64,000 nucleotides of DNA from positions 69,750,001-69,814,000 of the forward strand of contig OX597821.1 of NCBI GenBank assembly GCA_951406725.2. Reading direction: 5' to 3'. Positions 10,160 through 56,657 of this stretch are shown one piece after another. Both the position numbers and the translations under genes were made by a program. Source of the stretch: Octopus vulgaris. Taxonomy: Eukaryota. Numbering within the stretch: the first letter of the stretch is position 1; every line of letters starts with the position of its first letter. The notes under the pieces are model-generated. The model saw nothing but the letters and a program-made list of their open reading frames with translations. It did no database searches and had not been told where the DNA came from.

Positions 10160-10315
10160 TTAATCAATAATAAATCTCTGAACGAGGTATAAACAGTAAC
10201 TGCACGACAATGTGAGGTATATTTGCCATCTCAATATAGCTAACCACTAAAGGTGGGTGTTACTGTAGCTTGTAGCCCCAGGAGAACATCTCCTCCAGCT
10301 GGCTATAACACTTTA
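10160..10315 (-). mobile_element. Diverged fragment related to the hammerhead element at 55893-56471
   Basis: Collinear with 56205-56355 (aaatctc.gaa.gag...aaacagtaa...gccatct...gctaaccac...ggtgttactgtagctt.tagcccca.gaga...agctggct). Confidence 0.7.
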
Positions 10316-25389: not shown

Positions 25390-25810
25390 ATATAGGATAT
25401 CTGTTTCTTTATTGCCCACAAGGGGCTAAACGCAGAGGGGACAAACAAGGACAGACAAACGGATTAAGTCGATTACATCGACCCCAGTGCGTAACTGGTA
25501 CTTTATTTATCGACCCCGAAAGAATGAAAGGCAAAGTCAACCTCGGCGGAATTTCAACTCAGAACGTAACGACAGACGAAATACCTATTTCTTTACTACT
25601 CACAAGGGGCTGAACACAGAGAGGACAAACAAGGACAGACATAGGTATTAAGTCGATTATTTCGACCCTAGTGCGTAACTGGTACTTATTTAATCGACCT
25701 CGAAAGGATGAAAGGCAAAGTCGATATCGGCGGAATTTGAACTCAGAACGTAATGGCAGACGAAATACGGCTACGCATTTCGCCCGGCGTGCTAACGTTT
25801 CTGCCAGCTC
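25390..25810 (-). mobile_element. tRNA-headed SINE family 3 with an internal tandem duplication
   Basis: Minus-strand head gagctggcagaaacgttagcacgccgggcg...gagttcaaattccgcc. A ~180-bp unit occurs twice (~25400-25585 and ~25586-25765). Fragments of the family at 16905-17020, 29645-29735, 42460-42830 and 46610-46830. Confidence 0.85.
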
Positions 25811-55636: not shown

Positions 55637-55860
55637 ATGTGTGTGTGTGTGTGTGTATGTATGTATATATTTAGTGAGAGAGAGAGAGAGAGAGAGTAGA
55701 GAAAAAGAGAGAAAAATAGATGAATAGATACATATGTACTTATATATATACAAATACATATACTTACGTATACACATATACGCACACACACATGTGTATG
55801 TGAATAAATATCTATCTATAAATATATATCTATATATTAATATATATATGTACATATGTA

Positions 55861-55895
<35 letters not shown>

Positions 55896-56062
55896 AAAGT
55901 ATAGAAGCCATCTTATCATGGCTAACCACATTGGAGAGGGGGTGTTACTATAGCTTTATAGCCCCAAGAGATCTTCGTCTCTAGCTGGCTCTAGACACAA
56001 TATCTGTGTCCTTGGAGTATTTGCCAAGGGAGGCCATCCCTTCCTCGCAAGCCTGAGTGATA

Positions 56063-56106
56063 CGCTCGAACTAGTTTCGGGATTGTTGTCCCTCGTCAAC
56101 GGGCGG
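56063..56106 (-). ncRNA. Minimal hammerhead motif (U3 variant)
   Basis: Minus strand: ccgcccg-TTGACGA-GGGA caacaa TCCC-GAAAC-TA-GTT-cgagcg. Confidence 0.7.
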
Positions 56107-56399
56107 TAACCACCAGGTAGCGATGAAAGTGAAGGCTCCTTTGCAAATAGATATAAGTTTTTCTAATGGCGTCTGCCACTGATGTCGAAAAACGAACAGT
56201 AAGCATAATTAAATCTCAGAATGAGATTGAAACAGTAATCGCTCGATAATGTAAAGTATAGAAGCCATCTTATCATGGCTAACCACATTGGGGAGGGGGT
56301 GTTACTGTAGCTTTATAGCCCCAAGAGATCTTCGTCTCTAGCTGGCTCTAGACACAATATCTGTGTCCTTGGAGTATTTGCATCGCTACCTTGTGGTTA

Positions 56400-56444
56400 C
56401 CGCCCGTTGACGAGGGACAACAATCCCGAAACTAGTTCGAGCGG
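56400..56444 (+). ncRNA. Inverted copy of the same hammerhead motif
   Basis: TTGACGA 56407-56413; stem II GGGA/TCCC; GAAA 56428-56431; stem III palindrome AACTAGTT; stem I ccgcccg/cgagcgg. Confidence 0.7.
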
Positions 56445-56657
56445 ATCACTCAGGCTTGCGAGGAAGGGATGAATAGATGAATAGATACATATGTACTTAT
56501 ATATATACAAATACATATACTTACGTATACACATATACGCACATACACATGTGTATGTGAATAAATATCTATCTATAAGCCTCTCTATATATTAATATAT
56601 ATATGTACATATGTAATTTATTATACATAAATGTATGTATGTATATATCTATATCTA

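What the first reader, a model, noticed from the sequence alone, without database searches (positions are those of the whole stretch)
55715..56621. ~150-bp duplication of host flank bracketing the hammerhead element
Seen: 55715-55866 is repeated almost exactly at 56472-56621 (aatagatgaatagatacat...gtacatatgtaatttat). The element and a (TA)n run sit between the copies. Ordinary retrotransposon TSDs are usually under ~25 bp. Inference: either very widely staggered nicks, or re-copying of flank during a template-switching, repair-type integration primed at the TA tract.
Basis: seen in the sequence. Interest (0 to 1): 0.7.

Follow-up and report, generated by a model that had tools for sequence, protein, structure and literature searches.

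The report
One-off long landing scar, ribozyme retroelement
A small ribozyme-carrying jumping element sits between two near-identical 150-base copies of ordinary host DNA, which is most likely a rare, oversized insertion scar from one irregular insertion, since its relatives in the same genome leave scars of about 12 bases or none.

Summary
Observation confirmed: 55715-55866 recurs at 56472-56621 (145 of 152 letters alike), single-locus host DNA abutting the element. The element is a partial tandem (1.37 units) of a young 357-bp hammerhead repeat, an animal retrozyme with Penelope-type ends, plus a 94-bp inverted 5' arm. Long duplications are not a family trait: 1 of 203 insertions examined (this one). 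Regular two-armed copies carry 8-15-bp duplications (30 of 37 measurable). This copy belongs to a 5% class whose inverted arm starts inside the RNA, 10 nt past the end of the main arm, as in L1 twin priming. Best reading (0.58): an outlier target-site duplication from a second break about 150 bp away. Main rival (0.25): the 5' end was joined to, or copied from, a sister or homologous chromosome, which would explain why the (TA)13 run is on one side only. Reads settled neither the empty allele nor an artefact. Long duplications are published for L1, L2, R9 and Dualen; my searches found none for Penelope-type elements, but this scan noted 154-, 252- and 880-bp cases on other DNA (unchecked). Interest low to moderate.

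The parts
55715..55866 (.). Left copy of the duplicated host segment (152 bp, 80% A+T); lies at the element's 3' end
   Evidence: single-locus in G000
55867..55892 (.). (AT)13 run between the left copy and the element; no counterpart after the right copy
   Evidence: sequence
55893..56249 (-). Main arm, one full 357-bp unit; begins at unit position 1, one of the family's two fixed starts
56250..56381 (-). Main arm continued, unit positions 1-132 of a second unit (partial tandem, 130 of 132 alike)
56047..56117 (-). Type I hammerhead motif with U3 in place of C3 and a palindromic loop III; predicted cut between 56069 and 56068, not tested
   Evidence: Rfam HH9 E 6.6e-6, below gathering score; core letters held in at least 90% of copies
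56378..56471 (+). Inverted 5' arm, unit positions 143-236 (first 4 letters overlap the main arm's end); spans the predicted hammerhead hairpin and starts 10 nt past the point where the main arm stops
56389..56459 (+). Second hammerhead motif, inside the inverted arm
   Evidence: Rfam HH9 E 3.2e-4
56468..56471 (+). GATG at the element's end equals host GATG at 55719-55722: a possible 4-nt priming microhomology followed by an 8-nt slip; a blunt joint fits equally
   Evidence: sequence; inference
56472..56621 (.). Right copy of the duplicated host segment (150 bp); starts on the first base after the element

Best explanation
The 150-bp repeat is most likely an oversized target-site duplication, made when a Penelope-type enzyme probably copied one retrozyme RNA from two breaks about 150 bp apart instead of the usual 12-13. 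Shown: the duplication, the partial-tandem main arm starting at a fixed family start, the inverted arm starting inside the RNA 10 nt beyond the main arm's end, and the rarity of the pattern. Inferred steps: (1) a nick on the + strand near 55866 primed cDNA at the family's normal start, which ran 489 nt and stopped just before the second hammerhead hairpin; (2) the usual second nick was not used, and a 3' end on the - strand near 55715-55723 annealed inside the same RNA (possibly through GATG) and was extended to unit 234-236; (3) the two cDNAs joined through 1-2 nt of microhomology and host repair filled in both 150-nt gaps; (4) the (AT)13 run was added by slippage during or after priming. It is an accident of one insertion, with no sign of a function.
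For: Right copy starts exactly at the element's end. Family ends are Penelope-like: 91 of 203 start at unit 1, 99 about 48 nt earlier, 13 elsewhere, matching the two internal start sites of PMC11167929. Regular two-armed copies away from TA runs have 8-15-bp duplications in 30 of 37 cases, 20 of 30 being 12-13 bp, against 26 of 600 mismatched flank pairs. The one long case falls in the internally primed class, 10 of 203 copies, none of whose 4 members at non-TA sites has the regular short duplication. In 3 of that class (L001, L039, L046) the inverted arm starts 6-23 nt past the main arm's end (p=0.023 for 3 of 9), the twin-priming signature of PMC2912911. L046 has nearly the same geometry with no duplication. 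Age fits: 5-6 private changes in 583 element bases predict 2.6-3.1 events between the two copies, and 2 are seen. Rare long duplications from a distant second cut are published for L2 and L1.
Against: The (AT)13 run has no counterpart after the right copy, and none of the 30 regular copies with a readable duplication shows an added TA run, so step 4 is ad hoc. One of the two differences is a multi-letter replacement that looks as much like a haplotype difference as a new mutation. No autonomous partner was found: 39 GIY-YIG loci, including 9 with an intact 781-aa RT plus GIY-YIG frame, share no terminal sequence with the unit, the only two hits being 67-79% alike fragments of related repeats. 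Nick context is merely A+T-rich and does not discriminate. No read or contig among those listed bridges the right junction.
Confidence: 0.58

Rival explanations
1. The insertion was primed in a pre-existing (TA)n run, and its 5' end was joined to, or copied from, a second DNA molecule (sister chromatid or homologue) about 150 bp upstream of the matching position. The result is a small unequal crossover or repair re-copying bridged by the retrozyme cDNA. A later allelic crossover inside the right copy would leave similar marks.
For: Explains three asymmetries at once: TA run on the left only, the C/T difference and the multi-letter difference. 67 of 203 family copies have a TA run of 10 nt or more at the 3' end, while added TA is not seen at 30 readable regular sites. 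The GATG match plus 8-nt slip resembles microhomology-primed repair.
Against: Two differences are what the element's own age predicts without a second haplotype. The inverted arm's adjacency to the main arm needs both primers on one RNA at one time, which is simplest on one molecule. No haplotype data.
Confidence: 0.25
2. The empty site already held two tandem 150-bp copies and the element landed on their junction.
For: Near-tandem repeats of at least 100 bp and 90% identity occur in 15 of 406 flanks, 598 kb. Hitting a junction within 2-10 bp has a chance of about 1e-4 to 5e-4 per insertion, 0.02-0.1 over 203 copies (my arithmetic), which is small but not nil.
Against: The joint is exact; by eye many of the 15 are a 184-bp repeat family or minisatellites, not A+T-rich single-locus DNA; the case falls in the 5% class with an irregular 5' end; the divergence of the copies matches the element's age.
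Confidence: 0.09
3. Assembly artefact: a heterozygous insertion was merged so that both haplotypes of the flank were written in a row.
For: Differences between the copies could be haplotype differences; no read-level confirmation was obtained; one contig of run X17 goes from the left flank 72 bases into the segment unbroken, as expected where the right junction is missing (record 16).
Against: The right copy begins on the exact end of an inverted arm with a coherent twin-priming geometry; 202 other copies in the same assembly show no such doubling. X17 is not known to be the assembled individual, and contigs drop weak links to high-copy repeats.
Confidence: 0.06

Closest known systems
Animal non-LTR retrozymes (Cervera and de la Pena 2020, PMC7229834, passages read; Li, Clavereau and Pollet 2026, 10.64898/2026.07.22.740005, part 1 of 5 read)
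   Same: 357-bp non-coding unit, type I hammerhead with palindromic loop III, dispersed copies, presumed Penelope dependence; duplications said to be larger than 4 bp when present.
   Different: Mostly 1-2 units per insertion, often two-armed, with U3 in the core; the passages read give no duplication lengths and no case near 150 bp.
Insertion units of endonuclease-bearing Penelope-like elements (Pen2a_Av, PMC3846280, passages; PAc, PMC11167929, main text; PMC8557442, passages)
   Same: Partial tandem, inverted 5' arm, optional tail from two fixed internal starts, A+T-rich and microsatellite targets, 8-10-bp duplications in Adineta against 8-15 here.
   Different: No ORF; tail about 48 nt against 30-40; in this copy the inverted arm starts internally, not at a fixed start, and the duplication is 150 bp.
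L1 twin priming and long target-site duplications of L1 and ZfL2-2 (PMC2912911, PMC2666801, passages; Gilbert et al. seen only as cited there)
   Same: Inverted arm primed just beyond the main arm's end, short microhomologies, rare long duplications ascribed to a distant second-strand cut (1228 bp in 1 of 25).
   Different: As cited in PMC2912911, all 17 inverted L1 insertions in HeLa had 10-17-bp duplications and the very long ones went with truncated copies; here inversion and long duplication coincide, and the enzyme is probably Penelope-type.
R9 (126-bp duplication) and Dualen-4b (median 900 bp), from PMC9977147 passages; R9 paper not read
   Same: Duplication above 100 bp on both sides of a target-primed insertion.
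   Different: There it is a regular trait of the family; here it is 1 of 203.

Membership tests
Animal non-LTR retrozyme | 150-450-bp non-coding unit in tandem or partial tandem | tested here: met
   357-bp unit, 1.37 copies here; up to about 2.5 head-to-tail in other copies
Animal non-LTR retrozyme | Type I hammerhead in each unit | tested here: met
   HH9 match E 6.6e-6, below gathering score; core conserved in the family but with U3
Animal non-LTR retrozyme | Two consecutive complete hammerheads in one orientation (the 'active' criterion of Li et al.) | tested here: not met
   This copy has one hammerhead per strand; some other family copies have two in tandem, for example L035 and L073
Animal non-LTR retrozyme | Self-cleavage and circular RNA | not testable with these tools
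   No bench or raw RNA data
Penelope-type insertion | Two fixed 3' starts giving an optional tail | tested here: met
   91 + 99 of 203; one of the search patterns favours tailed copies
Penelope-type insertion | Inverted 5' arm with a short duplication | tested here: met
   Family: 84 of 203 two-armed, 30 of 37 measurable with 8-15 bp; this copy departs from the pattern
Penelope-type insertion | Autonomous RT plus GIY-YIG partner sharing the ends | tested here: inconclusive
   Intact 781-aa frames exist in G000 but share no ends with the unit; 39 loci compared out of 148 matches and 6136 candidates
Families with regular long duplications (R9, Dualen type) | Long duplication at most insertions | tested here: not met
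   1 of 203, exact 95% interval 0.01-2.7%
True target-site duplication | Empty site holds the segment once | tested here: inconclusive
   Contigs of 4 runs gave no bridge of either allele among the 32 of 3109 pieces listed
Twin priming | Inverted arm starts near the main arm's end, with microhomologies | tested here: met
   10-nt gap; 1-2 nt shared at the inversion joint; 4 nt possible at the 5' joint

The most novel reading that the evidence does not exclude
The duplication records a retrozyme-bridged unequal crossover: a Penelope-type enzyme primed one hammerhead RNA from two different chromatids, a TA-bearing haplotype on the left and a TA-free haplotype on the right, offset by 150 bp. Penelope machinery working in trans would then stitch homologues together in the germ line, with the hammerhead hairpin fixing where the second primer lands (the window copy and L046 invert at almost the same points).
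Probability: 0.12. Interest if true: 0.62.

Novelty: new member of a known kind. Interest (0 to 1): 0.27.

Why it matters
How Penelope-type elements cut and join the second strand is unresolved. This family gives a clean baseline (12-13-bp stagger when both arms start at the fixed sites) and shows that the irregular, internally primed copies lose it, ending with no duplication or, once, a 150-bp one. That is a useful data point for models of second-strand cutting, but a single outlier of a kind known from other retrotransposons does not change the picture unless population data show that two haplotypes were joined.

Tried and rejected
Family-wide long duplications: rejected, 1 of 203. Near misses inspected and dropped: L192 lies in (ATT)n; L020, L050, L097 and L165 in compound TA repeats; L124 is a degenerate match of about 45 bp; L012 is an unanchored flank repeat. 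At 75 of 203 copies a TA run hides any duplication inside the run; flanks were searched to 700 bp. Duplicated segment as part of the element or another repeat: rejected. Pairs of hammerhead hits 3.7 kb apart as the autonomous parent: rejected, they are LINE-interrupted copies. Direct repeats of up to 497 bp around 781-aa Penelope-like copies as long duplications: rejected, they are shared between copies and so are pseudo-LTRs. Fold stability of the inverted arm: not above shuffles, z -1.14. Nick-site motif: uninformative. Pile-up of arm ends at unit 233-238: 11 of 116, p=0.014, but the interval was chosen after seeing the data and 7 ends also pile at 345; weak. The AAGCCT in the multi-letter change as a templated insert from the element: a 6-letter match, expected by chance. 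Reads: one stretch (56300-56585) was laid on contigs of X1, X2, X17 and X18; no listed piece bridges the right junction, holes prove nothing, the left junction and the full span were not examined, and raw-read runs X22-X24 were not used, so artefact and empty allele stay open. Literature: searches listed no long duplication for Penelope-type elements or retrozymes; one search found nothing for the 200-bp RTE-1 duplication, which I only recall; the Gilbert 2005 paper was not held; no supplements were read, and they may hold duplication lengths.

Full report
Observation. The segment 55715-55866 recurs at 56472-56621 with 145 of 152 letters alike: one substitution and one multi-letter change. The score is 268 against at most 104 elsewhere in the window, and in G000 (2.8 Gb, 227 contigs) only these two places match above 90% among 40 scored of 395 candidates. 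It is low-complexity but single-locus host DNA. The right copy begins on the first base after the element; the left copy is separated from it by (AT)13.

The element. Between the copies lie a 357-bp unit (55893-56249), 132 bp of a second unit, and a 94-bp inverted piece equal to unit positions 143-236. A type I hammerhead reads on the - strand of the main arm and on the + strand of the inverted arm (HH9 model, E 6.6e-6 and 3.2e-4, both below the curated cut-off). Its core has U3, family-wide. The sense strand is therefore -, the TA run marks the 3' end, and the inversion is at the 5' end. The family is young (median 1.7% from the majority letter over 173 pieces) and has at least 370 exact hits for one 39-mer. 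It fits animal retrozymes (PMC7229834, passages), which a 2026 preprint derives from Penelope pseudo-LTRs (10.64898/2026.07.22.740005, part 1 of 5). Minimal and dimer-type hammerheads of such elements are described in PMC4209133 (part 1 of 4).

Family survey. Of 228 loci held at that point I set aside 10 (5 not family, 5 at LINE-interrupted sites) and 15 duplicates, leaving 203 insertions. This is part of the family, drawn from best hits and from the first-listed pattern hits, not at random. The 3' end is unit position 1 in 91, about 48 nt earlier in 99 and elsewhere in 13, the two-start, optional-tail signature shown biochemically for a Penelope-like protein that also cuts and extends both strands at A+T-rich DNA (PMC11167929, main text). 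84 copies have an inverted arm that also starts at a fixed start; away from TA runs 30 of 37 carry an 8-15-bp duplication, 20 of them 12-13 bp counting up to 3 shared edge letters. Adineta Penelope insertions carry 8-10 bp (PMC3846280, passages). One-armed copies show a short match in 20 of 87; mismatched flank pairs in 26 of 600. A long, non-microsatellite duplication occurs once, in the window copy (95% interval 0.01-2.7%). At 75 copies a TA run hides what lies inside it.

The irregular class. Ten copies have an inverted arm that starts inside the unit; L138 is nearly regular and L208 and L219 share one junction and right flank, so about 8 events. None of the 4 at non-TA sites has the regular short duplication. 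In L001, L039 and L046 the arm starts 6-23 nt beyond the main arm's end (p=0.023), the geometry of twin priming on one RNA (PMC2912911, passages); in the others the arms are over 100 nt apart or overlap. L046 inverts at nearly the same points as the window copy (about 144 to 234, main arm ending at 137) with no duplication. The window's inverted arm coincides with the predicted hammerhead hairpin (not more stable than shuffles). Earlier notes of this scan suggest unit 236 is the repeat's transcription start; my test was weak (11 of 116 arm ends at 233-238, post hoc). That the single long duplication falls in a class holding 5% of copies links it to irregular 5' joining.

Mechanism. Most likely a first nick primed normally, the regular second nick was not used, and a 3' end about 150 bp away on the other strand primed inside the same RNA; repair then filled both gaps. 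Position of the second cut as the determinant of duplication or deletion, and rare long duplications (1228 bp in 1 of 25), are described for ZfL2-2 (PMC2666801, passages). Age agrees: 5-6 private changes in 583 element bases predict 2.6-3.1 events between the copies, and 2 are seen. Against it: the TA run has no counterpart on the right, and 30 regular copies show no added TA. A second molecule as the source of the right side explains this and the two differences, and I give it 0.25; retrotransposon-bridged crossovers for L1 in tumours are recalled, not read. A pre-existing tandem is possible at a base rate of 15 near-tandem repeats in 598 kb. Contigs of four runs did not bridge either allele among the pieces listed; one X17 contig runs from the left flank 72 bases into the segment, which shows the flank junction but not the allele.

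Comparison and novelty. Duplications above 100 bp are regular for R9 and Dualen (PMC9977147, passages) and occasional for L1 and L2. Searches listed none for Penelope-type elements or retrozymes; subscription papers and supplements were not seen. This scan noted long duplications around Penelope-type inserts in other genomes (154, 252 and 880 bp; unchecked). No driver was identified: intact 781-aa RT plus GIY-YIG frames exist but share no ends with the unit. The label Penelope-like for that frame rests on the GIY-YIG hit and on RT motifs read by eye.

Verdict. Real, well above chance, tied to the insertion, but a one-off outlier of a known kind. Interest 0.27.

Noticed in passing
L196, L197, L198 and L229-L258: An L1/Tx1-like LINE (zf-CCHC, Exo_endo_phos, RVT_1, zf-RVT) sits at one spot just 5' of hammerheads. 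Of the 30 best 3'-end copies, 26 lie in units 71-96% alike to this family (24 at about unit 235, 2 beside short deletions), 2 in an unrelated hammerhead-like repeat and 2 head-to-tail on another copy; duplication about 15-17 bp in L196-L198. Two paper searches found no report; the scan has noted it several times in this genome.
   Followed up: partly
window 56047-56117 and family: The hammerhead core reads UUGACGA (U3 with G8) and the predicted cut follows GUU in at least 90% of copies; both could lower activity.
   Followed up: partly
L289-L297: Young Penelope-like family with an intact 781-aa RT plus C-terminal GIY-YIG frame, a CxxC-type linker, a 4.7-kb unit, pseudo-LTRs of about 500 bp and 3' ends in (TA)n; copies 91-99.8% alike.
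   Followed up: partly
L208 (C3, near its start) and L219 (C6, near its end): Two copies share the same inversion junction and right flank but differ on the left, which suggests a subtelomeric exchange or a break at the TA run.
   Followed up: no
L018, L096: The TA run on the 3' side extends well beyond a 12-13-bp stagger measured from a shared TACA, a hint that runs lengthen at or after insertion.
   Followed up: no
window 10167-10311: Old, 75% alike fragment of a related repeat spanning the tail and unit start.
   Followed up: no
window 25397-25768: Two tandem copies of a 184-bp unit, 87% alike; the same period recurs in six flanks elsewhere, so probably a tandem-forming repeat family.
   Followed up: no
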